A DNA stretch of 64,000 bases, taken from positions 21 through 64,020 of the forward strand of contig JBKDXM010000051.1 in the NCBI GenBank assembly GCA_046306335.1, given 5' to 3'. The translations under genes were made by a program, and so were the position numbers. Origin of the DNA: Planctomycetota bacterium. Lineage in GTDB: Bacteria; Planctomycetota; UBA1135; UBA2386. This document shows, one piece after another, positions 1,071 to 60,710 of this stretch. Positions within the stretch are counted from its first letter, which is position 1. The number at the start of each line of letters is the position of its first letter. A model generated the notes under the pieces. It searched no databases. It saw nothing but the letters and a program-made list of their open reading frames with translations, and was not told the origin of the DNA.

Positions 1071-1336
1071 GCCGGGCCGCCGCGCCGCCGGCCAGGTTCC
1101 GTCCAGGATCGGGAACGGCGTGCGGCCGTTGCCACCGGCGGCGCCGCGCCGCCGGCGCGCCGCCATCGCGCGCGCGCCGTCACGTCCGGCGGCGTGGGGT
1201 ATCCTCGCCGTGCGTCGCGCGTTTGCCCGCGCGGCGCGCCTCGTGTGGCTTCGTTGTGTGGTGGGGGGATCGGGCTCGTCGCCCGATCCCCACTTTTCTT
1301 TCCGCCCGCCGCGCCCCGCGCTACGGTCGCGCGCCC

Positions 1337-2677
1337 GTGAGCATCCTGCGCGATCCCGTCCACGGCGACATCGAGCTGTCGCGCGACGAACTGCGCCTCG
1401 TCGACACGGCTGCCGTGCAGCGGTTGCGCGGCGTCAAGCAGCTCGGCAGCGCGTCGTTCGTGTATCCGGGCGCGACGCACACGCGCTTCGAGCACTCGAT
1501 CGGCACGCTGCACGTCTGCGACCAGCTGCTCGCAGCCTGCAACCGCAACGCCGCGCGCGACGCCGCCTGCCGGCCGGTCGGCGACGACGAGCGGCGGCTG
1601 CTGCGCGCCGCCGCGCTGCTGCACGACGTCACGCACATCCCGTTCGGCCACAACATCGAGGACCAGACCGGCCTGCTGCCGCGGCACGACCTGCCCGAGC
1701 GGTTCCGCGCGGCCCTCGGCGACGGCGAGCTGGGCGACGAACTGCGCCGCCAGGGCCTGCAGGACGACGTGCTGGCGATCCTGACCGGCGAGGGCCGCGA
1801 AGTGCCGCCGTTCTGGCGGCAGGTGGTCAGCGACACGATCGACGCCGACCTGCTCGACTACCTGCGCCGCGACGCCCACTACACGGGCCTCGAGCTGCGC
1901 TACGACCGCCGCGTCGTCGACTACTTCCGCGTCGACCGGGCCTCGGGCGCGATGTTCGTCGACTGCGAGAAGAACGGCATGCTGCGCGAGGACATCGTGT
2001 CCGAGCTGCTGCGCGTGCTGGAGTGCCGTTACCACTTCAGCGAGCGCGTCTACTACCACCACGCCAAGATCGCCGCCGGCGCGCTGCTCTCGCGCATGGT
2101 CGAGCTGGCGCTGCGCGCCGGCGCGCTGACCGCCGCCGACCTGCAGCAGCTGACCGACGACACGCTGGTCTACCGGCTCGGCCAGATCGAACTCGGCGAG
2201 CCCGCGGCGACCGCGCGGCTGCGCCGCTTCGTCGAGCGCTACGCCCGCCGTCAGCTGCCCAAGCGCGTGCTCGTGCTGCCGTGGCACGACAACCAGGGCG
2301 TGCAGGACGAACTGCTGGCGACGTACTTCGCGCCGGGCCGGCCCGAGGCGCGCTTTGCGTGGGAATCGGCGATGGAGCAGCAGGCCGAGGCGGCGTTCGG
2401 CCGCCCGGTCGACGTGATCCTCTACTGCCCCAAGCGCCGCATGCAGCTCAAGGAAGCGAAGACGCTGGTGCGCTTCCCCGGCGAGGGCGGCAGGCTGCGG
2501 CCGCTCGACGCCTTCACTGCGCGCATCCCGCGGCTGTCCGATCTCGCCGCCAGCTACCCGCGCATGTGGAAGCTGTACGTGTTCACGTCGCTGGCGGACA
2601 AGGCGCAGCGCGCGGCGTTGCAGCGCATGTGCCTCGCGGCGCTGCCGGCCGGCTGCCGCAACGCCTTCGTGCTGTGA
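1337..2677 (+). CDS. HD-domain phosphohydrolase (COG1078 / SAMHD1-like dNTP triphosphohydrolase family)
   Basis: GTG 1337 within track ORF 221..2677. Motifs ILRDPVHGDIEL, THTRFEHSIGT, LLHDVTHIPFGHNIED and DADLLDYLRRD match the HD metal-binding set. The upstream part of the track ORF is Arg/Gly-rich junk. Confidence 0.85.
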   Translation: MSILRDPVHGDIELSRDELRLVDTAAVQRLRGVKQLGSASFVYPGATHTRFEHSIGTLHVCDQLLAACNRNAARDAACRPVGDDERRLLRAAALLHDVTHIPFGHNIEDQTGLLPRHDLPERFRAALGDGELGDELRRQGLQDDVLAILTGEGREVPPFWRQVVSDTIDADLLDYLRRDAHYTGLELRYDRRVVDYFRVDRASGAMFVDCEKNGMLREDIVSELLRVLECRYHFSERVYYHHAKIAAGALLSRMVELALRAGALTAADLQQLTDDTLVYRLGQIELGEPAATARLRRFVERYARRQLPKRVLVLPWHDNQGVQDELLATYFAPGRPEARFAWESAMEQQAEAAFGRPVDVILYCPKRRMQLKEAKTLVRFPGEGGRLRPLDAFTARIPRLSDLAASYPRMWKLYVFTSLADKAQRAALQRMCLAALPAGCRNAFVL

Positions 2678-3606
2678 ACGCCATCGTCGGGGCTGCCGTC
2701 GTCGCGCGCGTCGCGGTCCTCGCCGTTCCGGGGCGCACGGCGCGGAGGCAGCTCGCCACCGGGCTGCGCGCGGCCATGGTCGCCGCCGCGCTCGCCGTCG
2801 CCGCGCCGGCGCAACTGCTGACGACCGACGCCGGCGTGCTGTCGCCGGCGCTCATCTCCGCGCGCGAGACCGTCGAGTGGCAGCATCGGTCCGGCGCCGA
2901 CGACCTGCGCGCGACGACGCGCGCGGCGTGGTCGCCCGACCGCCGGCTGCAGTTCGAGGCCGGCGTGCCGTGGATCGCGCGCGACGTCGACACCGCGGCG
3001 GCGCAGGGCAGCACGACCGGCTTCGGCGACCTCGAGTTCGGCGCCAAGTGGGCGCTGGTGCGCGACGACGCGGTGATGCGCTCCGAGCGCCTGTCGCTGC
3101 TCGGCAACGTGCGCCTGCCGACCGGCGACGACGACGGCCGCGTCGGCGGCGTCGACCTCGGCCGCCGCGCCGCGCTGGGGCTCGGCGTGCACGGCTTCGG
3201 CGCGGGTGTCGGTTGGACGACGGTGCGCGACCGCCACCGCGCCGCTGCGGCTCTGCGCGGTTGGACCTACACCGAGGACGGCGGCTTCGCGCCCGGCGAG
3301 GCGGTGACGTTCGACGCGGCGTGGTGGATGCGTCTTCACCCCGTGCGCTTCGAACCGGGCGTGCACGAGAACGAACTCCGCTCGGTCGTGGAGTTGATCT
3401 CCGGCTGGCAGCAGGACGACCGCCAGGGCGGCGTGGGGCAGGACAACGGCGGCTTCTACGCCAAGGCGCTGGTCGGTCTGCAGGCCAATGCCACCGCGGC
3501 GACGAGCATCGAGGCCGGCGTGCTGCTGCCGCTGTACGACGACACCGCGTCGGCGCTCGGCGGCTTCCGCGTCGGCGTGCTGGTAACCTTCCGCGTCCTG
3601 TTCTAG
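2674..3606 (+). CDS. Outer-membrane beta-barrel protein (MetA-pathway/'transporter' OMP-like family)
   Basis: GTG 2674 overlaps the HD gene stop (GTGA). Signal-like AAMVAAALAVAAPAQ and the TGFGDLEFGAKWAL motif are present. The C-terminus ...VTFRVLF ends in Phe (OMP beta-signal) followed by TAG. Confidence 0.6.
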   Translation: MNAIVGAAVVARVAVLAVPGRTARRQLATGLRAAMVAAALAVAAPAQLLTTDAGVLSPALISARETVEWQHRSGADDLRATTRAAWSPDRRLQFEAGVPWIARDVDTAAAQGSTTGFGDLEFGAKWALVRDDAVMRSERLSLLGNVRLPTGDDDGRVGGVDLGRRAALGLGVHGFGAGVGWTTVRDRHRAAAALRGWTYTEDGGFAPGEAVTFDAAWWMRLHPVRFEPGVHENELRSVVELISGWQQDDRQGGVGQDNGGFYAKALVGLQANATAATSIEAGVLLPLYDDTASALGGFRVGVLVTFRVLF

Positions 3607-3622
3607 GCCGCCGCCTGCCCCG

Positions 3623-3748
3623 ATGCGCCGCACGCTCGCCCTCCTGCCGCTGCTCGCCGCCGCCTGCCAGGCGCCGCTGCCGCAGGCCGTCGCCGTGCGC
3701 GGCCACGGCCTGCAGACCATCTGGATCGAGACGCTCGGCCTCGAATGA
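3623..3748 (+). CDS. Lipoprotein signal peptide plus first beta-strand of an HMA domain. Ends at an in-frame TGA; probably the 5' part of the same gene as 3758..4099
   Basis: ATG 3623 encodes MRRTLALLPLLAAAC (lipobox) ...GLQTIWIETLGLE-TGA. Nearly all third positions are G/C. Same frame as the downstream ORF. Confidence 0.45.
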   Translation: MRRTLALLPLLAAACQAPLPQAVAVRGHGLQTIWIETLGLE

Positions 3749-3757
3749 CTGCCTTGC

Positions 3758-4099
3758 GTGAAGGCCGTGGCCGACGGCCTGCTGCGCCTGGATGGCGTGG
3801 CTGATCTGAAGGTGGATCTGCAAGCCAACCGCTGCACGATCACGCCCGCGAGCGACCGCGTGCCGGACCTCGCCGGCGTGCCGGTCGCGGTCGATCAGGC
3901 CGGCTTCCTGCCCGAACGCATGTGGCTCGAGGCGCGCGGCAGGACGGTCGCGCGCGACGGCGCGCTGTGGTTCGCGCTCGCCGGCACGGAGTTGGCGTGG
4001 CGGTGGGAAGGGTCGGCGGCGGATGGCCTCGTGCTGGCGCGCGTCGAGCGCCGGCCGGAGGTCGTGTTGGTGCCGGACGTGCTGCCGTTCGCGCGCTGA
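3758..4099 (+). CDS. Heavy-metal-associated (HMA) domain protein. The longest uninterrupted ORF lacks strand 1 and the first metal-ligand Cys
   Basis: Track ORF: (LPC)VKAVADGLLRLDGVADLKVDLQANRCTITP...VAVDQAGF matches the alpha1-beta2-beta3-alpha2 part of the HMA fold. See the finding on TGA 3746-3748. Confidence 0.6.
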   Translation: MKAVADGLLRLDGVADLKVDLQANRCTITPASDRVPDLAGVPVAVDQAGFLPERMWLEARGRTVARDGALWFALAGTELAWRWEGSAADGLVLARVERRPEVVLVPDVLPFAR

Positions 4100-4208
4100 G
4101 CGGCGCGGCGGCGGAGCGGCGGTCGCGTCGCGGCGCGCGGGGTCGCCTGTCGGCGCGGCGCGCGGCATGATCGCGCCGTCGTCGCCCCGCCGAGCTGGAG
4201 ACCTCGCC

Positions 4209-4385: not shown

Positions 4386-7300
4386 GTGCTGCAGGGCGAA
4401 CTCGGCAAGGGCGGCATGGGTCTGGTGGTGCAGATCCACGACCGCTTCCTCAACCGGCGGTTGGCGATGAAGCTGCTGCTCGAGCGCAGCGCGCCGCGCG
4501 ACGACGACGAGAGGCGGTTGCTCAACCAACTGCTCGGCCGCTTCCTGGAGGAAGCGCAGGTCACCTCGCAGCTCGACCACCCCGGCGTGGTGCCGGTGCA
4601 CGAACTCGGTCTCGATCAAGTCGGCAAGGTGTACTTCACCATGCGGATGGTGAAGGGCCGCACGGCGAGCGAGGTGTTCGCCGACGCGCACGCCGAGCGC
4701 AACGACTGGACGATCCCGAAGGCGCTGGAGGTGCTGCTCAAGGTCTGCGACACGATGAGCTACGCGCACGACAAGGGCGTGCTGCACCGCGACCTGAAGC
4801 CGGCCAACGTGATGGTCGGTCGCTTCGGCGAGGTGTACGTGATGGACTGGGGGCTGGCGAAGGTAGTCGGCCAGCAGGACCGGCACGACCTGCGCATCCG
4901 CCCGGACGCGGGCACGGGGGTGTCGCGGCTGGACACGGCGCGCAAGCGCGATGCCGAGCAGGCTCCGGACGACAGCGTGGTGTCGCTCGACGGGCAGCAG
5001 CTCGGCACGCCGAGCTACATGAGCCCGGAGCAGGCGCGCAGCGAGGACTTGGACGGGCGCGCGGACGTCTACTCGCTGGGCGCGATGCTGTACGAGTTGG
5101 TGACGGGCCGCGCGCCCTACACCAGCCCCGGCGTGCGGCAGCCGGCGTACCGCATCCTGCGCGACGTCGCCGACGGTCCGCCCAAGCGGGTCGAGGAGCT
5201 CGCGAAGGGCGTGCCGGCGGAGCTGGTGGCCATCGTCGACCGGGCGATGGCGCGCGAGCGCGCGCAGCGCTACGGCAGCCCGGCGGCGCTGGCGGCGGAC
5301 CTGCGCGCGTACCTCGGGCAGCGGGTGGTGGCGGCGTACCGGACCGGCGCGCTGGTGGAGCTCAAGCTGTGGGTACGGCGCAACAAGCCGCTGGCGGCGA
5401 GCCTGCTGGCGGCGGCGGCTTTGCTGGTGGCCGGCGTCATCGGCACGACGTGGTTGGCCAACCAGAATGCGGCGTTGGCGGCGGCGGAGGCGCAGGCGCG
5501 CGGCGAGGCGCAGCAGCGGGCCGAGGAGAACGCCAAGCTCGCCGAGTCCGAAGGCCGCGCCAAGGCGGAGTCGCAGCGCACGGTCGCCAACTTCCACGAG
5601 TTGTCGGCGGTGGTGCGGCTGCAGGACGTGTTGGCGCAGCAGGAGGCGCTCTGGCCGGCGTGGCCGGACAAGGTGGATGCGATCAAGGCGTGGCTCGCCG
5701 GTCCGTGCCAGCAGTTGCTCGACCAGCGGCCGCAGATCGAGGCGACGATCGCGGCGCTGCGGGCCAAGGCGCTGCCGCAGACACCGGAGCAGATCGAAGC
5801 GGACCGGCGGGCGTCGGCTTCGTTCCCGTCGTTCGAGCGGCAGCGGCAGAACGTGGCGGCGCTGCGTCGGGCGCAGGCGATCCGTGCGGGCGCCAGCCCG
5901 CTGGAGTTGCCGGCGTTGCCGGCCGCGCTGCAGGACGTCGATGCGTCGGCGCTGAACGCGTTCGCGTGGCCGCGCGTCGCGCCTGAGAAGGCGGGTGGTG
6001 AGAAGCCGGATCGCACGAGGTTCGGCGAGGAGGCGGTCGCGTTGGTGGCGGCGCGGGCGGCGGTGGCGAAGTCGACGGGCACCAAGGCGGCGTTCCAGAT
6101 CCTCGACACGCTGGCGTGGGCGGCGTTGGCCAACGGCCAGGACGGCGAGGCGACGCAGGCGGCGGCATCGGCGTTGGCGCAGGCACCGAAGGAGGAGCGG
6201 GCGGCGTACGAGGGCTACCAGCGGGCCATCGCAGCGGCGATCGCCGAGGCGCCGGCCCGTCTGGCGGCGGCAGAGGCCAAGCTGGCCGAACTGGACGCGG
6301 CGGTGTCGGTGCGTCGGACGTGGACGTTCGGCACGGACGAGGACAGCGAGTCGGCGCGGTTCCTGCACGCTGCGCTGGTGGACGTCGTGGCGGGTCTCGA
6401 CGGGTTGGCGAAGCGCGAGCGAGCGGACGTGGCGCAGCGGCTCGCATGGGCGCAGCAGGTCGCGTCGGCGAGCGCGGGCCATCCCAAGGCGCGGGTCACG
6501 TGGGCAGCGGCGCGGGAAGCGATCGCGAAGGCCGACGGCGTGGTGGCGAGCGAGTTGTACGCCGGCCGCGGCATCGTGATCCCGGACGGCGGCTGGGTCG
6601 GCTTGGTGCCGATCGGGATGAACCCGGTGACCAAGATGTGGGAGTTCTACGACCTGCGGAGCGCGTGGGACGGCGAGCAGGCAGCGAGCGAGATCGCGAT
6701 CCCGACGCACGCAGCGGACGGCAGCATCCAGGTTCAGGCCGGCACGGGGATCGTGTTCGTGCTGCTGCCGGGCGGCACGGTGACGTTGGGTTCGCAGAAG
6801 GACGACCCGAACGCGCCGTACTACGACCCGCAGCGCCAGGACGACGAGACGCTGCACGAGGTGACGTTGTCGCCGTTCTTGTTGGCGCGGCACGAGCTGA
6901 CGCAGGGCCAGTGGTCGCGGCTGTGGACGTGGGACGCAGAGCTGCGGGACCCGAGCCAATACAAGGCGGGCAAGAGCTTCAGCGGCAGGCGGATCACGTT
7001 GGCGAACCCGGTGGAGACGGTGGACTGGGGGATGTGCGATCGTCTGCTGACGCGTCACGGCATGGCGCTGCCGACGGAGGCACAGTGGGAGTACGGGTGT
7101 CGAGGCGGGACGACGTCGGCGTGGATCGAGCCGTTGGAGGAGTTGAAGAAGGTAGCGAACGTGGCGGACGCGGCGGCCAAGCGGGCGGTGCCGTCCTGGA
7201 ACTGCGAGACGTGGTCGGATGGCCACGCCGTGCACGCGCCAGTTGGCACGTTCGCGGCGAATGCGTTCGGCCTGCACGATGTGCATGGCAACGTGTGGGA

Positions 7301-7508
7301 GTGGTGCCGGAACTGGTACTGGGACTACGGCCGCGATCGTGCGGGCGATGGCCTGCGATCTGTTGGTTCCCCCGCCATCCGCGCCAGCCGCGGCGGCAGC
7401 TACTTCGTCTCAGCCGTCGGCGCGCGGGCGGCCAGCCGCAACAACTACTCACCGTCGCTCCGCAGCGACAACCTGGGCCTCCGCCCCGCCAGGTTCATCA
7501 CGTTCTGA
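4386..7508 (+). CDS. Ser/Thr protein kinase - TM - coiled coil - C-terminal formylglycine-generating-enzyme (FGE/SUMF1-type sulfatase-modifying) domain
   Basis: Kinase motifs GKGGMG, AMK, HRDLKPANVMV, DWGLAK and GTPSYMSPEQ. TM segment LAASLLAAAALLVAGVIG. C-terminal motifs HEVTLSPFLLARHELTQGQW, WEYGCRGG, HGNVWEWC, RGGSY and LGLRPAR. Confidence 0.9.
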   Translation: MLQGELGKGGMGLVVQIHDRFLNRRLAMKLLLERSAPRDDDERRLLNQLLGRFLEEAQVTSQLDHPGVVPVHELGLDQVGKVYFTMRMVKGRTASEVFADAHAERNDWTIPKALEVLLKVCDTMSYAHDKGVLHRDLKPANVMVGRFGEVYVMDWGLAKVVGQQDRHDLRIRPDAGTGVSRLDTARKRDAEQAPDDSVVSLDGQQLGTPSYMSPEQARSEDLDGRADVYSLGAMLYELVTGRAPYTSPGVRQPAYRILRDVADGPPKRVEELAKGVPAELVAIVDRAMARERAQRYGSPAALAADLRAYLGQRVVAAYRTGALVELKLWVRRNKPLAASLLAAAALLVAGVIGTTWLANQNAALAAAEAQARGEAQQRAEENAKLAESEGRAKAESQRTVANFHELSAVVRLQDVLAQQEALWPAWPDKVDAIKAWLAGPCQQLLDQRPQIEATIAALRAKALPQTPEQIEADRRASASFPSFERQRQNVAALRRAQAIRAGASPLELPALPAALQDVDASALNAFAWPRVAPEKAGGEKPDRTRFGEEAVALVAARAAVAKSTGTKAAFQILDTLAWAALANGQDGEATQAAASALAQAPKEERAAYEGYQRAIAAAIAEAPARLAAAEAKLAELDAAVSVRRTWTFGTDEDSESARFLHAALVDVVAGLDGLAKRERADVAQRLAWAQQVASASAGHPKARVTWAAAREAIAKADGVVASELYAGRGIVIPDGGWVGLVPIGMNPVTKMWEFYDLRSAWDGEQAASEIAIPTHAADGSIQVQAGTGIVFVLLPGGTVTLGSQKDDPNAPYYDPQRQDDETLHEVTLSPFLLARHELTQGQWSRLWTWDAELRDPSQYKAGKSFSGRRITLANPVETVDWGMCDRLLTRHGMALPTEAQWEYGCRGGTTSAWIEPLEELKKVANVADAAAKRAVPSWNCETWSDGHAVHAPVGTFAANAFGLHDVHGNVWEWCRNWYWDYGRDRAGDGLRSVGSPAIRASRGGSYFVSAVGARAASRNNYSPSLRSDNLGLRPARFITF

Positions 7509-20964: not shown

Positions 20965-21612
20965 TCATACCGCACCGTCCGGATCGACCAGCACGGAAAC
21001 CTCGGCCGCGGCGGCGGCGGCGGCGGCGGCCATGGCGATCGGTCGCCTGGCCGCCCGCGACAGGTCGGTCATCACGTCGGGCGCGAGGCCGCAGGGGCGC
21101 ACCGCGTGCCACGGCGCCAGGTCCATGGCGACGTTCACGCCGATGCCGTGCAGATTGACCCAGCCCTTCACGTGCACGCCGATCGAAGCGAACTTGCGGT
21201 CGCCGACGAAGACGCCGGTGCCGTCGACCGACGGCGTGGCGGCGAGGCCGAAACGGGCGGCGATGCGGACCCCGAAGCGTTCGAGCCGTCGCAGCCAGTC
21301 GCGCACGTCCCGCCGCGGCAGGCGCACGAGCGGATAGACGGTCAGTTGGCCGGGGCCGTGGTAGGTGATCTTGCCGCCGCGTTCGATCGGCACGATCCCT
21401 GGCCGCAGGTCGCCGGCCGGCGTCGCCCGTCCGGCGGTGTACACCGGCTCGTGTTCGACGAGCCACACGACGCCATCGGCTTCGCCGCGCTGCACGGCTG
21501 CGTGCCGGGCACGCATGCGTTCGAGCACGTCGCCGTACGCGGCGCGGCCGAGGTCGATCACCTCGACCCGCCGCGCGTCGGCGGCGGCGCGGGGCGGCGT
21601 CGGATCAGGCAA
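20965..21612 (-). CDS. lipB: Octanoyltransferase (lipoyl(octanoyl) transferase)
   Basis: Motifs WLVEHEPVYTAG, RGGKITYHGPGQL and KFASIGVHV. The track start at 21612 is TTG; an internal GTG (VEVIDLG) is an equally plausible start. Confidence 0.85.
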   Translation of the reverse strand: MPDPTPPRAAADARRVEVIDLGRAAYGDVLERMRARHAAVQRGEADGVVWLVEHEPVYTAGRATPAGDLRPGIVPIERGGKITYHGPGQLTVYPLVRLPRRDVRDWLRRLERFGVRIAARFGLAATPSVDGTGVFVGDRKFASIGVHVKGWVNLHGIGVNVAMDLAPWHAVRPCGLAPDVMTDLSRAARRPIAMAAAAAAAAAEVSVLVDPDGAV

Positions 21613-21925
21613 GCACGCGGTCGATCTGGCTCTTGATCGCCTGCATCGGCTGGTTGCCGAGGAAGCGGCCGACTTCCTTGCCGCCCTTGAAGAAGATGCA
21701 CGTCGGCACGCTCTGGATGCCGAACGAGGCGGCCGACTCCTGGGCGTTGTCGATGTCGACCTTGTAGACGGCGAGCTTGCCGTTGTACTCGGTCGCGACC
21801 TTGTCGATCGTCGGCGCGAGCGCCTTGCAGGGGCCGCACCAGGTGGCGGAGAAGTCGACGAGCACCGGCGTCTTCGCGCTCTGCACGGTGCTCTGGAAGT
21901 TGCTGTCGGTGAGTTCGGTGACCAT
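21605..21925 (-). CDS. trxA: Thioredoxin
   Basis: ATG at 21925. VLVDFSATWCGPCK active site; 106 aa. Confidence 0.9.
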   Translation of the reverse strand: MVTELTDSNFQSTVQSAKTPVLVDFSATWCGPCKALAPTIDKVATEYNGKLAVYKVDIDNAQESAASFGIQSVPTCIFFKGGKEVGRFLGNQPMQAIKSQIDRVLA

Positions 21926-22162
21926 GGAGTGGAGGGGCTGGCGCAATCGCGTCGGCGCGGATTCTGGCCGCTGCGAGGGATGGTGCAAGGACCGCTGTCG
22001 CGAGACGGCGATCGGGAGGTGCGACCGGACGGTCGGCCGCGACGGGCAGAAGACGAATGGCAGGCGGCGGCGCGGGTTCGGCGCCACGGTCCGCGCGTTC
22101 ACCCGGGGCTCGGCGAGGTCCTGGCGGACGACGTCGCCCCGGTGGCCGCACGGTGCCGGCGG

Positions 22163-22399
22163 TCAGCCCTGCCGGTTCATCGCCGCCAGCAGGCGATCGG
22201 TCGGGATGCCGTTCTGCGTCGCGACGGTTTCGATCGAGTCGTGCGGGTTGAAGCCGCAGTTGCGGCAGCCGCCGAGGTGGAAGTCGCGCATCAGCACCAT
22301 GCCGAGCGACGGGTCCGCCGTCAGGCACTCGAGCATCGTCGACTTGGTGGTGAAACGGGCCTGGGCGGCCGTCGGGGTCGTGTTCGTCGGGTTGTTCAT
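22163..22399 (-). CDS. DUF1858 / hybrid-cluster-protein-associated redox disulfide domain protein
   Basis: 78 aa. FHLGGCRNCGF motif and ...TIETVA...GI-type tail. Confidence 0.65.
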   Translation of the reverse strand: MNNPTNTTPTAAQARFTTKSTMLECLTADPSLGMVLMRDFHLGGCRNCGFNPHDSIETVATQNGIPTDRLLAAMNRQG

Positions 22400-22403
22400 G
22401 GGT

Positions 22404-36325: not shown

Positions 36326-37705
36326 CTACGGCCCGCCGCCCGCCGCCGTCGCGTCGACGCCGCGCGCTGCGCGGTGGTCGGCGAGCGCGCGGTGCCAATC
36401 GAGCCAAGCCTCGACCGCGAGCGCCTCGGCGTCGGCGAACTGCAGTTCGCGCAGCTGCACGCGGAACATGTCGCTGCGACCGAGCTCGAAGGCGCGCTTC
36501 TCGGCGTCGACGACCTGCCTCGCGAGGTCGGCGTTGCGGCGGCCGGCGACGTACTGCGCGTGCGCGGCGCGCAGGGCGGAGCGCGCGTCGGCCACGTCGT
36601 TGACGATGCGATCGCGCGTGAAGCGGTTGTCGATCTGCAGCCGCCGGATCGCGGCCTCGGCCTGCGCCAAACGGCCGTAGGCGTCGCGCTGGCGCAGCGG
36701 CAGGCGCAACTCGCCGCCGACGAACAGCTCTTCCTGCGACGGATCGAGGTAGGGGTCGGAGCTCAGCGACCGGCTGGCCTCGACGACGACGTCGAGCTGC
36801 GGTTGGGTCTGGTTGCTGGCGAGCTGGCGATCGGTCTCGGCCCGATCGAGTTGCAACTGCAGCCGGCGCAGCTCCGGCCGCCGCTGCAGCGCCTCCTCGG
36901 TGTCCGCCATCAGCGTGGCCTCGTCGAGCGGCTGCGGCGCGGGCACGTCCGCCGGCAGGCGCTTGCCGTCGGGCACGATCGGCGCGTCCCCGGCGTCGCG
37001 CAGGAACAGCGACAATTCCAGCGCCGCCTGTTGCAGCTGCCGCTCGGCGCGCGCGACGAAGGTCTGGCGCTGCGCGATCAGCCGTTCGTTGTCGGTGACG
37101 TCGATGGCGGCCAGGAACTGCCGCTCGACGCCGCGCTGCAGGTCGGCGACGCGCTCGGTCGCCAGCCGCAGCAGGTCGTTGGCGATGCGCAGGCGCTGGC
37201 CGGCGGCGACCCAGGCGTAGTACACGCGCGCAGCCGAGCGTACGTAGTCGATGCGCGCGCGCGCGATCGTCGGGTCGGCGAGTTCGGCGTCGATCTCCGC
37301 CTGCCGCACGACGGCGCGGCGGCGGTCGAAGCCGCGGTCGCGGAACAGCGGGATGCGACCGCCGAAGACCAGTTCGCCGGCGTCCTGCGTGCGGTCCTTG
37401 CTGTAGTCGGGCAGGCCGCCGTCGCTGATGCGGTAGCCACCGTAGACCGTGTCGCCGGTGGCGAGCGGCTGCTCCAACTGCGCGCCGAACGTGGTGGCTT
37501 CGTAGTAGCCGGCTACCTGTCGGCCGATCCGGCTGGTCAGGTTGGTGTCGAAGTTGCCCATCGCCTGCAGCAGCCGGCCGGACGCGAGGTCGCGTTCGAG
37601 CAGCGTGCTCAGCCAGGGCGGGTAGCGGCTGGTGACCGACGCGATCACCTCGTCGAGTCCGAGGGGCGCGTCGGGCTGCGGCAACGAGGACGTCGCAGGC
37701 ACCAC
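36326..37705 (-). CDS. TolC/NodT-family outer-membrane efflux protein. The longest uninterrupted ORF has no signal peptide
   Basis: Two OEP-type repeats with typical coiled-coil/Gly-Tyr beta segments (TVYGGYRISDGG..., FVGGELRLPL...). Ends in TAG. The lipoprotein signal lies upstream of in-frame TAG 37745-37747. Confidence 0.75.
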   Translation of the reverse strand: MVPATSSLPQPDAPLGLDEVIASVTSRYPPWLSTLLERDLASGRLLQAMGNFDTNLTSRIGRQVAGYYEATTFGAQLEQPLATGDTVYGGYRISDGGLPDYSKDRTQDAGELVFGGRIPLFRDRGFDRRRAVVRQAEIDAELADPTIARARIDYVRSAARVYYAWVAAGQRLRIANDLLRLATERVADLQRGVERQFLAAIDVTDNERLIAQRQTFVARAERQLQQAALELSLFLRDAGDAPIVPDGKRLPADVPAPQPLDEATLMADTEEALQRRPELRRLQLQLDRAETDRQLASNQTQPQLDVVVEASRSLSSDPYLDPSQEELFVGGELRLPLRQRDAYGRLAQAEAAIRRLQIDNRFTRDRIVNDVADARSALRAAHAQYVAGRRNADLARQVVDAEKRAFELGRSDMFRVQLRELQFADAEALAVEAWLDWHRALADHRAARGVDATAAGGGP

Positions 37706-45960: not shown

Positions 45961-48570
45961 TCACTTCACCTCGCGACCGCCGCCGGCGCGCTGCTGCAGG
46001 CCGCGCAGCAGGTCGAGCGCCTGCCGCGGCGAGACGTCGTCGAGGTCGAGCCGGCGCAGGTCCTCGACCACCGGATCGGGCGGCGGCGCGAACAGTTCCT
46101 TCTGCTTGAGGCCGGGCCGCTGGCGGTCGCGCGCCGCGACCAGCGCCTCGCGCATCGCGCCGCCTTCCTCCTCCAGCTTGCCGAGCACCTGCCGCGCGCG
46201 CTCGATCACGCCCTTCGGGACGCCGGCGAGGCGGGCTACGTGCAGGCCGTAGCTGCGGTCGGTGCCGCCCTCCTCGATGCGGTGCAGGAAGGCGACCTCG
46301 TCGCCCCATTCGCGCACCGCGACGCGGCAGTTGACGATGCCGCGGCCGGGGCCGGCGAGGTCGGTCAGCTGGTGGTAGTGCGTCGCGAACAGCGCCCGGC
46401 AGCGCACGCGGTCGTGCAGGTCCTCGGCGATCGCCCACGCCAGCGACATGCCGTCGTACGTGCTGGTGCCGCGGCCGACCTCGTCGAGCACGACGAGGCT
46501 GCGCGCGGTCGCGTTGTTGAGGATATTGGCGGTCTCGGTCATCTCGACCATGAACGTCGAGGCGCCGCGGCTGATGTCGTCGGCGCCGCCGACGCGGGTG
46601 AAGATGCGGTCGACGACGCCGATGTGGGCGGCGCGCGCCGGCACGAAGCCGCCGATCTGCGCGAGCACGACGATCAGCGCGTTCTGCCGGATCCAGGTCG
46701 ACTTGCCCGCCATGTTGGGGCCCGTCAGCAGCACCAGCCGCCGGCCCGGCGGGTCGAGGTCGGTGTCGTTGGCGACGAAGGAGCCGGCGGCGTGCGTCGC
46801 CTCCAGCACCGGATGCCGGCCGTCCTCGATGCGCAGCGTCAGCGAGTCGTCGACCTCGGGCCGGCAGTAGTCGCGTTCGCGCGCGACCGTCGCCAGCGAC
46901 ATGCAGGCGTCGAGCTCCGCCACCGCCTGCGCGGTCGCCTGCAGCGGCGCGATCGCCGCGGCGACCTTCTCGCGCAGCGCCTGGAACAGCTCGTACTCCA
47001 GCGCCTTGCCGTTCTCCTCGGCCTTCAGCACCTTGCTCTCGAACGTGCGCAGGTCGTCGGTGACGTAGCGCTCGGCGTTGCGCGTCGTCTGCTTGCGCTG
47101 GAAGTCCGGCGGCAGGGCGACGTCGCGGTGCGTGTGGGTGACCTCGATGTAGTAGCCGAAGACGCGGTTGAATCCGACCTTCAGGCTCGGCACGCCGGTG
47201 CGCTCGACCAGCTGCTGCTGGTAGCGCGCCAGCCACTCGTTGCTGTCGCGCGCCAGCGTGCGCAGCTCGTCGAGCGCGGCGTCGTAGCCGGCGCGGATCA
47301 GGCCGCCGTCCTTGATCGCCAACGGCGGCTCGTCGACCAGCGCCGCGCCGATGGCGAACGCCAGCTCGGGCAGCGGATCGAGGCGCTGGCCGAGCGCGCG
47401 CAGCAGCTCGCTGCGGCCCTCGCGCAGCAGCTCGCGCACGGCGGGCAGGCGGTCGAGGCTGGCGCGCAGGCCGACGAGGTCGCGCGCATTGGCGCGGCCG
47501 AAGGCGGCGCGCGCGCCGAGGCGTTCGAGGTCGAGCACGGCGGCGAGCTGCTGCGTCAGCGCGGCCAGCAGCGCGCTGTCGCCGTGCAGCTCGGCGACGG
47601 CGTCCTGACGGCGGCGGATCGCGGCGACGTCGGCGAGCGGCGCCAGCAGCCAGGTGCGCAGCAGCCGCGCGCCCATCGGCGTCGCCGTGCGGTCGACGAC
47701 CGCGAGCAGCGTCTTGCCCTCGGCGTCGCGCATCGTCTGCACCAGCTCCAGGCTCTGCCGCGTGGTGCGGTCGAGGCGCATGAAGGCGCCGTCGTGCCAG
47801 ACCTCGGGGCCGCGGAGGTGCGGAAGCGCGCACAGCTGCGTCTCCTGCAGGTAGGCGACGAGCGCGCCGGCGGCGCCGACGGCCAGCGGCATGTCCTGCA
47901 CGCCGAAGCCGGCGAGCGTCGACACGCGGAAGAACTGCTGCAGCAGCCGCGTCGCCGTCTCCGCGCCGAAGTCGTAGGCGGCGCGGAACGTCGTCGGCGT
48001 GCCGTCGGCCGGCTGCCATGGCCGCGCCGCGCCGCGCTGTTCCTCGGCCAGCAGCAGCTCGCCCGGCTCGATGCGCGCCAGTTCGTCGCCGAGCCGCTCG
48101 GGCGCGCACTCGTGCACGTGGAACGCGCCGGTCGACAGCTCGACCCAGGCGACGCCGACGCGGTCGCGGCCGAAGGCGATCGCGGCGAGGTGGTTGTCGC
48201 GCTTGCCGTCGAGCAGGTTGTCCTCGGTCAGCGTGCCGGGCGTGACCACGCGCACGACCGCGCGTTCGACGACGCCCTTCGCCTCCTTCGGGTCCTGCAG
48301 CTGTTCGCAGATCGCCACCTTGTGGCCGGCGCGCACGAGCCGCTGCAGGTAGCCGTCGACGGCGCGCGCCGGCACGCCGGCCATCGGGATCGCCGACTCG
48401 CCCTTGCTGCGGCTGGTCAGCGTCAGGCCGAGCGTCTTCGCCGCGAGCTTCGCGTCGTCGAAGAAGAGCTCGTAGAAGTCGCCCATGCGGAAGAACAGCA
48501 GCGCGTCCGGATGGCGCTGCTTCTGCGCGTGGTACTGCGCCATCGCCGGCGTCGCGGCCGCGTCGCTCAT
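45961..48570 (-). CDS. mutS: DNA mismatch repair protein MutS
   Basis: [30 protein letters not shown] mismatch-binding motif, Walker [10 protein letters not shown], and [12 protein letters not shown]. Confidence 0.95.
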
Positions 48571-49766
48571 CGCCCCGCCGCTCCCGCCGCCCCGCGCGGG
48601 CGCGCGCCGAGCAGCCGCCGCGACTCGTCGGCGATCGCCTCGGCGGCGAACGCGACCTCGTCGTCGGTCGTGGCGCCGCTGAACGACACGCGCACGACCT
48701 CCCGCGCGGCGGCGCGATCGAGGCCGATGGCCGCCAGCACGTGGTTGTCGGCCTGCTTGCCGCCGCCGTCGTCGCCGTGCGCGCCGTGGCAGGCGGAGCC
48801 GGTCGAGAACGCCACGCCACGCGCGTCGCAGCGCATGGCCAGCGTCTGGCCGACGATGCCCGGCAGGCGCAGCGACAGGATGTGCGGCAGGCGGCGGTCG
48901 GCGTGGCCGAGGCGCTGCGCGTCGGGCACGGCCCCTCGCACCGCCGCGAAGACGCGTTCCGCCATCGCCGTCGTGCGGGCCGCGATCGTCGTCTGGTGGG
49001 TGAGCACGTGCTCGGCGGCGACGGCGAGGCCGACCGCGCCGGGCACGTTCTCGGTGCCGCCGCGCAGGCCGCCTTCCTGGCCGCCCGCGGGCAGCAGCGG
49101 CGCCACCTCGGCCGTGCCCGCGAGCGCCAGGAAGCCGGCGCCGCGGGGGCCGTGGAACTTGTGGCCGCTGACGGCGACGGAGTCGACGTCGTGCGCGTCC
49201 ATGTCGAAGGGCAGCTTGCCGTAGGTCTGCACGAGGTCGACGTGCACGTGCGCGCCCGGCGCGGCGCGGCGCACCAGTTCGACGAGGTCGTCGAGGCGCG
49301 ACAGCGTGCCGAGTTCGTTGTGGCCGTGCATCAGCGCCACCGTGCGCACGTCCGGGCCCAGGTGTTCGAACAGCGCTTCGGGATCGAGGTCGCCGTCGCG
49401 CGTCGTCGGCAGCACGGTGACGTGGTGCCGTAGCCGGCCGAGCAGCCCCTGGCAGTTCAGCAGCGCCGGATGGTCGCTCGCCGCCATCAACACGCGGCCC
49501 GGCGCGCGCGCCATGGCGCTGCCGACGATGCCCAGCTGGTCGGCCTCGCTGCCGCCGGACGTGAACACGACGCGGCCGGCGCCGACCGTGCCGCGCAGGA
49601 ATTCGCGGGCGTCGTCGAGCAGCCGGCGCGCCGGCGGGCCGAAGGCGTGGCCGCTGCTCGGATTGCCGAAGCAGTCGCGGGCCGCCGACGCCATCGCTGC
49701 GACGACCGCGGGCAGCGGGGGCGTGGTGGCGGCGTTGTCGAGGAAGATGCGGCGGACGCCGGGCAT
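48567..49766 (-). CDS. Cysteine desulfurase (class V aminotransferase, NifS/IscS-like)
   Basis: ATG at 49766. Motifs [30 protein letters not shown] (PLP-Lys) and STGSACH (active Cys). Overlaps the mutS start by 4 nt. Confidence 0.85.
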
Positions 49767-49888
49767 GCGCCGATCATGGCCCGCCGCCGTGCCCGTGGCC
49801 ACACCTGGGCGATCGCAGCCGGAGCCACGCTTGCGCGGCGACGGGGCCCGGCCTTCAGGCGGCGCGACGGCCGGCCGATACCAACCGC

Positions 49889-50755
49889 ATGTGGACGTGG
49901 ATCGCGACGGCTTGGCTCGCCGCGGCCGGCGTGGCGCTCTATGCCCACGCCCGCCTGCGTCGCGGCCTCGTCGCCGTGCCACCCCACGACGCTGCGTTCC
50001 TGCTGCGGTTCGAGAACGAACTCGCCCGCTGCCACCGCGAAGTCGGCTTCCTCGGCCTGCTGCCGGACCGGCTCGCGTGCCTGCTGTGCGTCGACGGGCA
50101 GGAGACGGTCGTGTCGTTGCACGGCCTGCGGCAGTTCGCCGACGCGCCTGGCGACGAGTTCACGCGCCGTGTCGCCACGTTGCTCGGCGAGGTGCGCGAC
50201 GTCGGGCTGCATCGCGTCGACGGCCTCGGTGGCGACTTCGCCGACGCCTGCCGCAACCTGCTGCCGCAGGTGCGGACCCGCGCCTGGCTCGAAGAACACG
50301 GCGCGTTCGGCGATTCCGGCCTCGTGCACCGCCCGCTCGCCGATGGGCTCGTCGTCGTCTACGTGATCGAGGACGGGGCGGACCTCGTGTTCGTCTGCCG
50401 GCGGCACCTGCAGCGCTGGCGCCGCAGCGAGTCCGACCTGTACTCGCTCGCGTGCGCCAACCTGGCGGCGACCGGGGAACCGATGCCAGCGGCGCTGCCG
50501 GACGAGGGCCTGCTGCTGCGTTCGGGGGACGGCTTCGACGCTGCGCGCGTGCTCCTGCTGCTCGACGCGGCGATCGAACTGGTCGTCGCCCTGCCCGACC
50601 GCGACACGCTGTTCGTCGGCGACCCGCAGCGCATCGACGTCGGCCGCGTCGGGTCGGCGGTCGCCGCCGTCGCCGCCAACGCGCCGCACCCCGTGAGCGA
50701 CTCGCTGTACCGGCTCAGCGACGGCCGTCTGGAACCGGTCGCGTCGGCGCGCTGA
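49889..50755 (+). CDS. Hypothetical protein with an N-terminal TM anchor
   Basis: MWTWIATAWLAAAGVALYA anchor, normal composition and GC3-rich frame. No motif recognised. Confidence 0.45.
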   Translation: MWTWIATAWLAAAGVALYAHARLRRGLVAVPPHDAAFLLRFENELARCHREVGFLGLLPDRLACLLCVDGQETVVSLHGLRQFADAPGDEFTRRVATLLGEVRDVGLHRVDGLGGDFADACRNLLPQVRTRAWLEEHGAFGDSGLVHRPLADGLVVVYVIEDGADLVFVCRRHLQRWRRSESDLYSLACANLAATGEPMPAALPDEGLLLRSGDGFDAARVLLLLDAAIELVVALPDRDTLFVGDPQRIDVGRVGSAVAAVAANAPHPVSDSLYRLSDGRLEPVASAR

Positions 50756-59954: not shown

Positions 59955-59965
59955 CGTGTCGCCGA

Positions 59966-60700: not shown

Positions 60701-60710
60701 GCGTTGGCCC

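What the first reader, a model, noticed from the sequence alone, without database searches (positions are those of the whole stretch)
3623..4099. In-frame TGA at the first Cys of the CxxC metal site of an HMA-domain lipoprotein, with a SECIS-like hairpin: candidate selenoprotein
ATG 3623 opens a GC3-rich ORF encoding a lipoprotein signal (MRRTLALLPLLAAAC) and then ...GLQTIWIETLGLE. It stops at TGA 3746-3748, and the same frame continues LPCVKAVADGLLRLDGVADLKVDLQANRCTITP...VAVDQAGF (track ORF 3758..4099). Read through, this is a complete beta-alpha-beta-beta-alpha-beta heavy-metal-associated fold. G-L-E-[TGA]-L-P-C lines up with the canonical G-M-x-C-x-x-C loop, so the stop codon sits exactly where the first metal-ligand Cys belongs. 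That is the classic Sec/Cys signature. The downstream RNA can fold into a hairpin spanning 3756-3787. Its upper 7-bp stem is 3762-3768/3774-3780, the apical loop is GGCCG, and U3783 is bulged. The upper stem starts 13 nt after the UGA, roughly the geometry of a bacterial SECIS. The alternative is a TGC/TGT-to-TGA nonsense mutation, making this a pseudogene.
Basis: partly seen in the sequence, partly recalled or inferred. Interest (0 to 1): 0.72.

Follow-up and report, generated by a model that had tools for sequence, protein, structure and literature searches.

The report
Selenocysteine copper-chaperone-like lipoprotein gene
The in-frame TGA is very probably not a mutation but a conserved selenocysteine codon at the metal-binding site of a secreted heavy-metal-binding lipoprotein. 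It is followed by two conserved RNA hairpins, and the gene belongs to a selenoprotein family that no public source searched here lists or annotates.

Summary

- **One gene across the TGA.** ATG 3623 to TGA 4099 reads as one 158-codon gene. The 14 codons before TGA 3746-3748 show no amino-acid changes but normal synonymous change.
- **TGA conserved.** It is kept in all 22 distinct homologous genes read, down to about 38% identity. Most also have TGA at the second ligand position (UxxU). The window has TGC there (UxxC), a change that arose at least three times in the close clade.
- **Cys homologues exist.** More distant full-length homologues carry CPFC or CPSC at the same place.
- **Two hairpins, not one.** They lie at 3762-3780 and 3781-3801, are 97.8% paired across 18 sequences, and show four compensatory pairs. 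Synonymous change there is 11-fold lower than in the rest of the gene. A Cys-form homologue cannot form them.
- **Protein and partners.** It is a lipoprotein with a CopZ-like HMA domain and a small beta domain. It is always next to an outer-membrane barrel gene. A Cys form sits between a MerR regulator and a multicopper oxidase.
- **Gaps.** selA, selB, selC and selD could not be checked. UGA-to-Cys recoding is not excluded.
- **Novelty.** HMA selenoproteins are known; this family fits no curated model.

The parts
3623..4099 (+). Complete selenoprotein gene: 158 codons plus the terminal TGA, with one in-frame UGA at codon 42.
   Evidence: One continuous frame with continuous GC3 phase. The 159-codon layout is identical in 12 distinct close relatives. 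The allele is identical in 5 independent assemblies.
3623..3667 (+). Lipoprotein signal peptide MRRTLALLPLLAAAC. Cys15 (3665-3667) is the predicted lipidation site.
   Evidence: Read from the sequence. A hydrophobic stretch followed by an [AG]-C box is present in every homologue: LAAAC, LAVAC, FAGC, VAGC, LLGC, LTGC. Cys15 is invariant in the close clade. The signal peptide evolves almost neutrally, pN/pS 0.91. No signal-peptide predictor was available.
3707..3907 (+). Heavy-metal-associated (HMA, ferredoxin-like) domain, residues about 29-95. Strand beta1 lies upstream of the UGA.
   Evidence: Pfam PF00403 scores 26.3 bits against a gathering score of 24.8 with Cys substituted. PDB sequence matches to ATP7B, CopA and CopZ cover query residues 29-95. 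The AlphaFold2 model of residues 43-158 gives alpha-beta-beta-alpha-beta. Foldseek matches CopZ 2qif with probability 1.00 and rmsd 2.2 A, although its E-value of 0.024 is not significant.
3746..3748 (+). UGA codon 42, the predicted selenocysteine. It is the first metal ligand of the U-L-P-C motif.
   Evidence: TGA in all 22 distinct homologous genes read. It aligns with the first Cys of GMTCxxC and with the first Cys of CPFC/CPSC in Cys-form homologues.
3755..3757 (+). TGC codon 45 (Cys), the second metal ligand. It is TGA in most relatives.
   Evidence: TGA in L006-L013, L015-L019, L021-L033. TGC in the window, L001-5, L014 and L020. L019 differs from the window by 1.1% of gene nucleotides yet has TGA. 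The UxxC state is polyphyletic in the neighbour-joining tree.
3762..3780 (+). Hairpin 1: 7-bp stem, loop GGCCG. Candidate SECIS for UGA 3746.
   Evidence: -13.1 kcal/mol, with the loop starting 20 nt after the UGA. It meets every bSECIS criterion in 18 of 19 sequences (criteria from PMC13188914). One pair (3765/3777) changes from C-G to G-C in L030 and L032. L033 keeps a hairpin in a shifted register.
3781..3801 (+). Hairpin 2: 8-bp stem, loop UGGAU. A second SECIS-like element. It is at a SECIS-compatible distance from the second UGA of UxxU relatives.
   Evidence: -14.4 kcal/mol. The loop starts 31 nt after the second ligand codon and 40 nt after UGA 3746. Three pairs show two-sided compensatory changes and two show one-sided changes. 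RNAalifold predicts it independently.
3920..4096 (+). C-terminal beta-strand domain of about 60 residues; function unknown.
   Evidence: The AlphaFold2 model has five strands after the HMA part, with pLDDT 88-93 over residues 61-110 of the model. Foldseek gives only weak OB-fold-like matches, E >= 0.03. The domain is present in both Sec forms and Cys forms.
4097..4099 (+). Terminal TGA, read as a true stop.
   Evidence: The stop position is conserved in all 12 close relatives. TGA ends 23 of 25 genes checked in the window, so there is no genome-wide reassignment of TGA.
2674..3606 (+). Upstream partner gene: predicted outer-membrane beta-barrel related to Pfam PF13557 (Phenol_MetA_deg). Its stop lies 16 nt before ATG 3623.
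   Evidence: Called as a 310-aa gene in public assemblies of this allele. Its last 277 residues are 33% identical (E 2e-38) to the L030 neighbour and 28% identical (E 4e-12) to the L036 neighbour. Both of those pass the PF13557 gathering score. The window protein itself gets no Pfam hit. A barrel-type gene lies next to the HMA gene wherever context was seen. The protein ends in ...FRVLF.
1337..2677 (+). HD-domain protein gene, syntenic with the pair in the close Phycisphaerales clade only.
   Evidence: The order HD (446 aa), barrel, HMA is seen in L001-L014. Translation. A terminator-like hairpin at 1265-1291 precedes it.

Best explanation
3623-4099 is one intact gene for an exported lipoprotein of the heavy-metal-associated (CopZ/MerP-like) fold. 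The first metal ligand is selenocysteine, encoded by UGA 3746-3748. The second ligand is Cys here and Sec in most relatives.

Proposed mechanism, by analogy with the established bacterial pathway:
- The ribosome reaches UGA 3746.
- SelB carrying Sec-tRNA(Sec) is held on the mRNA just downstream.
- Hairpin 1 (3762-3780) sits at the canonical distance for this UGA.
- Hairpin 2 (3781-3801) sits at a SECIS-compatible distance for the second UGA in UxxU relatives, and it persists in the window.
- After signal-peptide cleavage and lipidation at Cys15, the protein sits in the periplasm. It binds a soft metal ion, most likely Cu(I), less likely Hg(II), between the selenolate and the thiolate.
- It probably hands the metal to, or takes it from, the outer-membrane barrel encoded just upstream (2674-3606).

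Shown here: gene continuity, conservation of the UGA, Sec/Cys alternation, the HMA fold, the two conserved co-varying hairpins, and the barrel-HMA gene pairing.

Inferred: actual Sec insertion, which hairpin serves which UGA, which metal is bound, and the partnership with the barrel.
For: 1. **Translated through the UGA.** GC3 phase is continuous across it. In 12 distinct close relatives, codons 28-41 just upstream have pN = 0 with pS = 0.18. The part after the hairpins has pN/pS = 0.29.
2. **UGA conserved.** TGA sits at the first ligand in all 22 distinct homologous genes read, from 98% down to about 38% protein identity and across contigs of 61-74% GC. Most of the other library hits are 96-126 aa and begin at the same point, just after the motif.
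3. **Sec/Cys signature.** The second ligand is TGA or TGC among close relatives, with at least three independent TGA-to-TGC changes. Full-length Cys forms have CPFC or CPSC in the same columns.
4. **Local recoding only.** TGA ends 23 of 25 window genes, including this one.
5. **RNA constraint.**
   - Synonymous divergence over codons 43-59 is 0.022 against 0.246 in the rest of the gene. That is the lowest of 127 sliding windows.
   - The two-hairpin structure is 97.8% paired in 18 distinct sequences, with 4 pairs changed on both sides. Covariation exceeds all 500 shuffles and all slid registers.
   - RNAalifold finds the same structure.
   - A Cys-form gene cannot form it: +9.3 against -27.5 kcal/mol.
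6. **bSECIS criteria.** Hairpin 1 meets them for UGA1 in 18 of 19 sequences. Hairpin 2 meets them for UGA2 in 19 of 19 (criteria).
7. **Fold and function.** Pfam HMA. PDB alignment to Cu-ATPase and CopZ domains. The model matches CopZ.
8. **Gene context.**
   - A Cys form lies in MerR - HMA - PF13557 barrel - NHL protein - 74-aa ORF - multicopper oxidase.
   - A Sec form is followed by an ArsR-type regulator.
   - A ligand-less form lies next to a cupredoxin.
9. **Phylum can use Sec.** Some Planctomycetes carry complete Sec machinery (PMC4807772).
Against: - No selA, selB, selD or tRNA-Sec lies in the 64-kb window or in the fetched relatives' contigs. The protein check covered only the 20 window ORFs whose length suits SelA, SelB or SelD. 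The rest of the genome could not be examined, so the Sec machinery of this Phycisphaerales lineage is unverified.
- No Rfam SECIS family matches the region.
- Hairpin 1 of L030/L031 has loop CAG, which lacks the G in the first two loop positions.
- Hairpin 2 is 40 nt from UGA1, outside the usual 16-37 nt range. Yet it is fully kept in UxxC lineages, which the simple one-hairpin-per-UGA model does not explain.
- The metal assignment rests on three gene contexts only.
- The window's own barrel protein gets no direct Pfam hit.
- Most compensatory changes separate a few clades, so the number of independent events is small.
Confidence: 0.84

Rival explanations
1. The UGA codon or codons are recoded by SelB and the hairpins, but to cysteine. 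A SelC*-type tRNA (tRNA-ReC) would read UGA as Cys in a SECIS-dependent way, so the mature protein would carry CxxC with no selenium, or a mixture.
For: [quoted passage not shown] It states that one or both UGA codons of UxxU motifs may be read as Cys. This family is ancestrally UxxU. The second position has switched to TGC repeatedly, which shows that Cys is acceptable there.
Against: The first UGA was never replaced by a Cys codon in any of the 22 sequences of the UGA-bearing group, whereas the second was replaced at least three times. That is hard to explain if the first UGA merely encoded Cys. No tRNA of this kind was seen in any fetched DNA, though that covers little of any genome.
Confidence: 0.08
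2. Pseudogene: a TGC/TGT-to-TGA nonsense mutation has inactivated an HMA lipoprotein gene.
For: A single base separates TGA from TGC. Public gene callers split the locus into a 41-aa ORF and a 110-113-aa ORF.
Against: The TGA is conserved in 22 distinct homologous genes down to about 38% identity. A second TGA sits exactly at the other ligand position. Purifying selection acts on both sides: pN = 0 upstream and pN/pS = 0.29 downstream. There are no frameshifts or other stops. The downstream hairpins are conserved and co-vary.
Confidence: 0.01
3. Two separate genes: a 41-residue lipopeptide ending at TGA 3748, and a 113-residue protein starting at GTG 3758, as annotated in public data.
For: GTG 3758 is a possible start codon. 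Gene callers use it, or a nearby GTG/ATG.
Against: The codon at 3758 is GCG in L023-L026, and called starts differ between relatives. The downstream product would lack strand beta1, the metal-binding loop and any signal peptide, while its missing strand would be exported separately. The HMA profile and the PDB alignments span the TGA. Full-length Cys forms are single polypeptides.
Confidence: 0.02
4. SelB-independent read-through. The hairpins slow the ribosome or hinder RF2, and a near-cognate tRNA (Trp or Cys) reads UGA.
For: UGA followed by C, as here, is a weak termination context in E. coli (general knowledge). Stable structures lie just downstream.
Against: Trp would destroy the metal site. 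The hairpin positions, loop sizes and loop G match the bacterial SECIS model. UGA placed exactly at both Cys ligand positions, together with Cys homologues, is the established Sec signature.
Confidence: 0.03

Closest known systems
NCBIfam NF041115 'UxxU_metal_bind', metal-binding (seleno)protein. [quoted passage not shown]
   Same: An HMA-type domain in which both ligands of the CxxC metal site are selenocysteine. Relatives of the window gene carry exactly this UxxU motif, and weak profile similarity exists.
   Different: The window protein scores 18.4 bits, and six distant Sec forms score at most 31.8 bits (two of them do not register), against a cutoff of 95. The NF041115 model is a 74-position single domain. 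This protein has 158 residues with a lipoprotein signal and an extra C-terminal beta domain, and it is paired with an outer-membrane barrel gene. The window copy is UxxC.
Cation-transporting P-type ATPase (E1-E2, COG2217) selenoprotein with UxxC in its N-terminal HMA domain (PMC9312934, PMC13188914).
   Same: The same UxxC arrangement in an HMA domain. The best PDB sequence matches of the window protein are HMA domains of copper ATPases.
   Different: That protein is a cytoplasmic domain of a large membrane pump. This one is a small exported lipoprotein with no ATPase part.
CopZ / Atx1-type copper chaperones and MerP (periplasmic mercury-binding protein).
   Same: The fold and the metal loop GMxCxxC. 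Like MerP, the protein is exported. A Cys-form relative lies in an operon with a MerR-family regulator and a multicopper oxidase.
   Different: Sec replaces the first Cys. All curated CopZ and MerP models score far below their cutoffs, for example CopZ 25.5 against 91 and MerP 17.2 against 92.55. Other differences are the lipid anchor, the additional C-terminal domain and the conserved PF13557 barrel partner.
Bacterial SECIS element (bSECIS consensus; E. coli fdhF type).
   Same: A stem-loop inside the coding region just after the UGA, with a 3-9 nt loop, a G in the first two loop positions and 16-37 nt spacing. Hairpin 1 satisfies all criteria.
   Different: Here two adjacent hairpins are both conserved and co-vary. 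PMC13582414 suggests, as a possibility, a single SECIS serving both UGA codons of a UxxU motif. No Rfam family matches.

Membership tests
Bacterial selenoprotein gene (SelB/SECIS-dependent UGA recoding) | In-frame UGA conserved among orthologues, with coding potential and purifying selection on both sides. | tested here: met
   TGA in 22 of 22 distinct homologous genes. pN = 0 with pS = 0.18 upstream; pN/pS = 0.29 downstream. GC3 phase is continuous.
Bacterial selenoprotein gene (SelB/SECIS-dependent UGA recoding) | Homologues with Cys aligned to the UGA position (a Sec/Cys pair). | tested here: met
   CPFC or CPSC in P0032, P0047, P0050, P0056, P0058, P0064, P0066 and P0072. TGA/TGC alternates at the second ligand among close relatives.
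Bacterial selenoprotein gene (SelB/SECIS-dependent UGA recoding) | Downstream stem-loop meeting the bSECIS model: loop 3-9 nt, stem 4-16 bp, G in the first two loop positions, 16-37 nt from the UGA, MFE <= -7.5 kcal/mol. | tested here: met
   Hairpin 1 has loop GGCCG, 7 bp, 20 nt spacing and -13.1 kcal/mol. Criteria quoted from PMC13188914.
Bacterial selenoprotein gene (SelB/SECIS-dependent UGA recoding) | The hairpin is conserved in UGA-containing homologues, supported by covariation, and absent from Cys forms. | tested here: met
   97.8% of cells paired, 4 compensatory pairs, 0 of 500 shuffles reach the covariation score. RNAalifold agrees. Cys form L036 gives +9.3 kcal/mol in that register. 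Only one Cys form was examined.
Bacterial selenoprotein gene (SelB/SECIS-dependent UGA recoding) | selA, selB, selC (tRNA-Sec) and selD present in the same genome. | not testable with these tools
   None in the window or in fetched contigs of relatives (searches scanned only the 20 window ORFs whose length suits SelA, SelB or SelD). Other contigs of the source MAGs could not be read. Some other Planctomycetes have the full set (PMC4807772).
Bacterial selenoprotein gene (SelB/SECIS-dependent UGA recoding) | Selenium actually incorporated at the UGA position. | not testable with these tools
   Needs 75Se labelling or mass spectrometry.
Pfam PF00403 HMA domain | Profile score at or above the gathering threshold, with the GMxCxxC metal loop. 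| tested here: met
   26.3 bits against 24.8 with Cys substituted for the UGA. The loop G-L-E-U-L-P-C aligns with G-M-T-C-Q-S-C of ATP7B.
Pfam PF00403 HMA domain | beta-alpha-beta-beta-alpha-beta ferredoxin-like fold. | tested here: inconclusive
The model shows alpha-beta-beta-alpha-beta and matches CopZ 2qif with probability 1.00 and rmsd 2.2 A, but E = 0.024. Strand beta1 is inferred from the sequence alignment.
NCBIfam NF041115 UxxU_metal_bind (known HMA-type double selenoprotein) | Score at or above the curated cutoff of 95 bits. | tested here: not met
   Window 18.4 bits. Of six distant Sec forms, four score 20.1-31.8 bits and two do not register.
NCBIfam NF045683 MerT/CopZ fusion-like heavy metal transport selenoprotein | Score at or above the cutoff of 375 bits, with MerT fusion architecture. 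| tested here: not met
   At most 26.4 bits in relatives. There is no MerT part.
MerP (TIGR02052) and CopZ (NF033795, NF047957) equivalogs | Score at or above the curated cutoffs (92.55; 91; 85). | tested here: not met
   17.2, 25.5 and 23.5 bits for the window protein.
Rfam SECIS families | Covariance-model match at 3700-3860. | tested here: not met
   Only chance-level hits to unrelated families, E >= 1.6.
Bacterial lipoprotein | Signal peptide ending in a lipobox with an invariant Cys. | tested here: inconclusive
   LLAAAC is consistent with the lipobox pattern as recalled from general knowledge, and the Cys is invariant in the close clade; equivalent boxes occur in all homologues. No dedicated predictor was available.

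The most novel reading that the evidence does not exclude
The two tandem hairpins could be a dual SECIS. Hairpin 1 would position SelB for the first UGA (loop 20 nt away). Once the ribosome has melted it, hairpin 2 would position a second SelB for the UGA three codons later (loop 31 nt away). That would be a dedicated answer to the open question of how two UGA codons 9 nt apart in UxxU motifs are both decoded. The recurrent loss of only the second Sec (at least three times, while the first was never lost) would then reflect the cost of the second, less well-placed event.
Probability: 0.3. Interest if true: 0.75.

Novelty: new member of a known kind. Interest (0 to 1): 0.6.

Why it matters
- **Annotation.** Public gene calls for this locus and for every UGA-bearing relative fetched are truncated. 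The locus is split into a 41-57-aa ORF and a 110-119-aa 'hypothetical protein'. A widespread exported metal-binding protein is therefore missing from proteomes of freshwater Phycisphaerales and from other high-GC environmental contigs whose organisms were not identified.
- **Biology of selenium.** Most known selenoproteins are cytoplasmic redox enzymes. An extracytoplasmic, lipid-anchored Sec metal-ligand protein paired with an outer-membrane channel would extend selenium use to envelope metal handling.
- **Mechanism.** The family offers a natural series (UxxU, UxxC, CxxC and a ligand-less form), and the Sec forms carry two well-defined hairpins. This makes the decoding of closely spaced UGA codons directly testable with reporters.

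Tried and rejected
- **Sec machinery in the window.** ARAGORN and Rfam found only tRNA-Leu and tRNA-Ala. Pfam scans of the 20 ORFs whose length suits SelA, SelB or SelD found none of them. The only loosely related item is a generic class-V aminotransferase at 48567-49982.
- **tRNA-Sec in relatives.** Ten relatives' contigs held none.
- **Other selenoprotein genes in the window.** I screened for in-frame TGA with coding signal on both sides. The screen was too strict to recover even the target. Its one hit, on the minus strand at 22165, is the normal stop of a small Cys-rich gene upstream of a thioredoxin gene.
- A broad alignment was too diverse for the metagenome scan and a narrower one was used.
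- **Rfam.** A permissive search of 3700-3860 found no SECIS family.
- **Hairpin sequences elsewhere.** Pattern searches for both hairpins in the window found nothing meaningful.
Tested and rejected.
- **C-terminal domain.** Foldseek gave only weak OB-fold-like hits. I considered a CusF-like second metal site and dropped it, because no Met, His or Trp ligand set is conserved across the family.
- **Literature.** deep-Sep and BSepDB do not mention HMA, copper or Planctomycetes selenoproteins.
Full report
**1. What is in the sequence**

The window is 72% G+C. ATG 3623 opens a frame that reads MRRTLALLPLLAAACQAPLPQAVAVRGHGLQTIWIETLGLE. It then meets TGA at 3746-3748 and continues LPCVKAVADGLLRLDGVADLKVDLQANRCTITP...LPFAR to TGA 4097-4099. 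Third-position G+C stays at 0.80-0.95 in this one phase from about 3600 to 4100.

With Cys written for the TGA, the protein passes the Pfam HMA gathering score, 26.3 bits against 24.8. A sequence search of the PDB aligns TIWIETLGLE-C-LP-C-VKAV with TSTVRILGMT-C-QS-C-VKSI of ATP7B, and similarly with CopA and CopZ. The TGA therefore sits on the first Cys of the GMxCxxC loop.

**2. It is not an error and not a pseudogene**

The identical allele, TGA and TGC included, occurs in five independent assemblies from different samples. Two of them are NCBI MAGs.

A search of 5.8 billion proteins found only 110-113-aa products that start just after the motif. The DNA around them, three GTDB genomes, eleven metagenome contigs and three more distant homologues were read in frame.
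- All 22 distinct genes keep TGA at the first ligand position. They range from 98% down to about 38% protein identity, on contigs of 61-74% G+C.
- None has a frameshift or any other stop.

I ran a Nei-Gojobori calculation on 12 distinct close relatives:

| Region | pS | pN | pN/pS |
|---|---|---|---|
| Codons 28-41, just before the TGA | 0.18 | 0 | 0 |
| Codons 60-158, after the hairpins | 0.246 | 0.070 | 0.29 |
| Signal peptide, codons 2-15 | 0.154 | 0.140 | 0.91 |

So the piece upstream of the TGA is translated in this frame and is under strong selection as protein.

TGA is the ordinary stop of 23 of 25 genes checked in the window, including this gene's own end. Any recoding is therefore local.

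**3. The Sec/Cys signature**

Most relatives read G-L-E-TGA-[LMTI]-P-TGA-[VAM]-K, so both ligands of the CxxC site are TGA (UxxU). The window, L001-5, L014 and L020 have TGC at the second position (UxxC).
- L019 differs from the window by 1.1% of gene nucleotides and still has TGA there.
- In a neighbour-joining tree of the gene, the four UxxC lineages are scattered among UxxU ones.
- All outgroups are UxxU.
- So TGA changed to TGC at least three times, while the first TGA was never replaced.

An exhaustive profile search of 1.84 billion representatives returned 67 proteins, of three kinds:
- Most (about 50) are 96-126 aa and start within a few residues of the motif.
- Full-length Cys forms carry CPFC or CPSC in the same columns: P0032, P0047, P0050, P0056, P0058, P0064, P0066, P0072.
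- One full-length form, P0022, has lost both ligands (D-E-W-P-A).

This is the pattern on which bacterial selenoproteins are normally called.

**4. The RNA element is two hairpins**

The region 3746-3810 folds better than all 200 shuffles, z = -3.15. The centroid structure is two adjacent hairpins:
- H1: 3762-3768/3774-3780, loop GGCCG.
- H2: 3781-3788/3794-3801, loop UGGAU.

Among close relatives, synonymous divergence over codons 43-59 is 0.022 against 0.246 for the rest of the gene. That is the lowest of 127 windows of the same size.

Across 19 sequences, 18 of them distinct:
- 97.8% of cells pair.
- Four pairs change on both sides: H1 3765/3777 C-G to G-C, which swaps Ala and Gly in the protein; H2 3782/3800 C-G to G-C; H2 3783/3799 U-G to G-C; and H2 3781/3801.
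- Three more pairs change on one side and stay paired.
- No shuffle and no slid register reaches the observed covariation.

RNAalifold predicts the same two helices. L033 keeps H1 in a shifted register and lengthens H2. A Cys-form gene cannot form the structure: +9.3 against -27.5 kcal/mol.

One of its pairs is broken in 14 of 18 sequences and it shows no compensation, so I reject it.

I scored the hairpins against the published bSECIS model (loop 3-9 nt, stem 4-16 bp, G in the first two loop positions, 16-37 nt from the UGA, MFE <= -7.5; PMC13188914). Results are:
- H1 qualifies for the first UGA in 18 of 19 sequences. Its loop starts 20-21 nt from the UGA (18 nt in L033, where the register is shifted), and its energy is -9 to -14 kcal/mol.
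- H2 qualifies for the second UGA in 19 of 19 sequences. Its loop starts 31-32 nt from that UGA.
- H2 lies 40-41 nt from the first UGA, just outside the usual range.

Rfam has no matching family.

**5. What the protein is**

The N-terminus is a signal peptide ending in a lipobox. The Cys is invariant in the close clade, and every homologue has an equivalent box.

An AlphaFold2 model of residues 43-158 has mean pLDDT 84. It shows the rest of the HMA fold, then five further strands. Foldseek matches the first part to CopZ (2qif, probability 1.00, rmsd 2.2 A, E = 0.024). It gives only weak OB-fold-like hits for the second part.

The gene just upstream (2674-3606) ends in ...FRVLF, with its stop 16 nt before the ATG. 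Its last 277 residues are 33% identical (E 2e-38) to the neighbour in L030 and 28% identical (E 4e-12) to the neighbour in L036. Both of those pass the Pfam PF13557 threshold. The window copy gets no direct hit.

A gene of this barrel type lies next to the HMA gene in every context seen. Three contexts are informative about function:
- Cys form P0047: MerR regulator - HMA - barrel - NHL protein - 74-aa ORF - multicopper oxidase.
- Sec form L030: followed by an ArsR-type regulator.
- Ligand-less P0022: next to a cupredoxin.

From this I infer a periplasmic soft-metal chaperone, most likely for Cu(I), that works with an outer-membrane channel. The metal and the partnership are inferences from only three contexts.

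**6. Organism and the untested step**

The genome hits are MAGs labelled Planctomycetota or Phycisphaerales. The samples are mostly freshwater.

No Sec gene or tRNA-Sec lies in the window or in the fetched contigs. The protein check covered only the 20 window ORFs whose length suits SelA, SelB or SelD. Other Planctomycetes (Gemmata, Isosphaera, two Porphyra-associated strains) have complete Sec machinery (PMC4807772), so the trait exists in the phylum. For this lineage it remains to be shown.

A recent paper reports that SECIS-dependent UGA-to-Cys tRNAs (tRNA-ReC) are enriched in genomes with UxxU motifs (PMC13582414). I cannot exclude that reading. The fact that the first UGA was never exchanged for a Cys codon, while the second was exchanged repeatedly, argues that the first position is not simply Cys.

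**7. Comparison with what is known**

HMA-type selenoproteins are already catalogued:
- The UxxU 'metal-binding protein' NF041115.
- A MerT/CopZ fusion, NF045683.
- The UxxC cation-transporting ATPase.

Neither the window protein nor six distant Sec forms reach any curated NCBIfam cutoff. For NF041115 the scores are 18-32 bits against 95, and CopZ and MerP models are also far below threshold. The architecture also differs: lipoprotein signal, extra domain and barrel partner. No source in the protein collection holds a full-length version.

I therefore file it as a new member family of a known kind, the HMA metal-site selenoproteins.

Its tandem, individually co-varying hairpins are a feature I did not find described. 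PMC13582414 suggests, as a possibility, that a single SECIS serves both UGAs of a UxxU motif. Whether each hairpin serves one UGA is open. Hairpin 2 is fully retained in the UxxC lineages. That may reflect recent loss of the second UGA, or a role for H2 in decoding the first.

**8. Verdict**

I put the probability at about 0.84 that this is a SelB/SECIS-decoded selenoprotein. About 0.08 goes to SECIS-dependent Cys insertion, and a few per cent to everything else. Interest is moderate to high: a well-supported, unannotated selenoprotein family with an unusual location and a testable decoding question, but within a known category.

Noticed in passing
window 3755-3757, compared with L019:1306-1308 and other relatives: The second ligand codon has flipped from TGA to TGC at least three times independently within a clade that differs by less than 15% in nucleotides. 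One flip separates the window from a contig that differs by 1.1% of gene nucleotides. The first TGA never changes in the 22 UGA-bearing sequences.
   Followed up: yes
L034:1143-1634 (P0022): A full-length homologue with the same lipoprotein and beta1 layout has lost both ligands (GVD-E-WP-A-ARAV). It still has a partial two-hairpin potential (-16.4 kcal/mol). It lies next to a cupredoxin gene and a RoxA-like cytochrome c gene. It may be a former selenoprotein that has taken on another role.
   Followed up: partly
window 3700-3710 and 3763-3773: An 11-nt perfect complement: CGGCCACGGCC, inside codons for R-G-H-G upstream of the UGA, pairs with GGCCGUGGCCG, which is the 5' arm and loop of hairpin 1. 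It surfaced as a chance Rfam hit. It could compete with hairpin 1 on untranslated mRNA. Conservation beyond the close clade was not checked.
   Followed up: no
window 4386-7508 (+): A 1040-aa fusion of a Ser/Thr protein kinase with a C-terminal FGE-sulfatase domain lies downstream of the selenoprotein gene. In L006-L011 this position is occupied by an exonuclease-like gene on the other strand, so the downstream neighbourhood is variable.
   Followed up: partly
window 21605-22402 (-): A small Cys-rich ORF (...HLGGCRNCGFNPHD...NRQG) ends at TGA 22165-22163. The frame then stays open, with high GC3, into a thioredoxin gene (WCGPC). It looked like a second read-through candidate, but it is an ordinary stop followed by an open intergenic stretch.
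   Followed up: yes
window 48567-49982 (-): A class-V aminotransferase (the NifS/CsdA/selenocysteine-lyase family type). It is generic and not evidence for selenium metabolism, but it is the only loosely related gene found in the window.
   Followed up: no
window 58704-63991 (-), and 36326-37705 (-): A MacB-type permease, a HlyD/CusB-like membrane-fusion protein and an outer-membrane efflux protein (OEP) form an efflux cluster. A second OEP gene lies at 36326-37705. No link to the HMA gene was examined.
   Followed up: no
window 1265-1291 (+): A strong terminator-like hairpin (11 bp followed by a T-rich tail) lies just upstream of the HD-domain gene. This suggests that HD, barrel and HMA form one transcription unit starting after it.
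   Followed up: no
L030:3412-3717 and L036:2564-3004: Metal-type regulators flank family members in other organisms: an ArsR/SmtB-like HTH protein after a Sec form, and a MerR-family protein before a Cys form. The window has no such regulator adjacent to the gene.
   Followed up: partly
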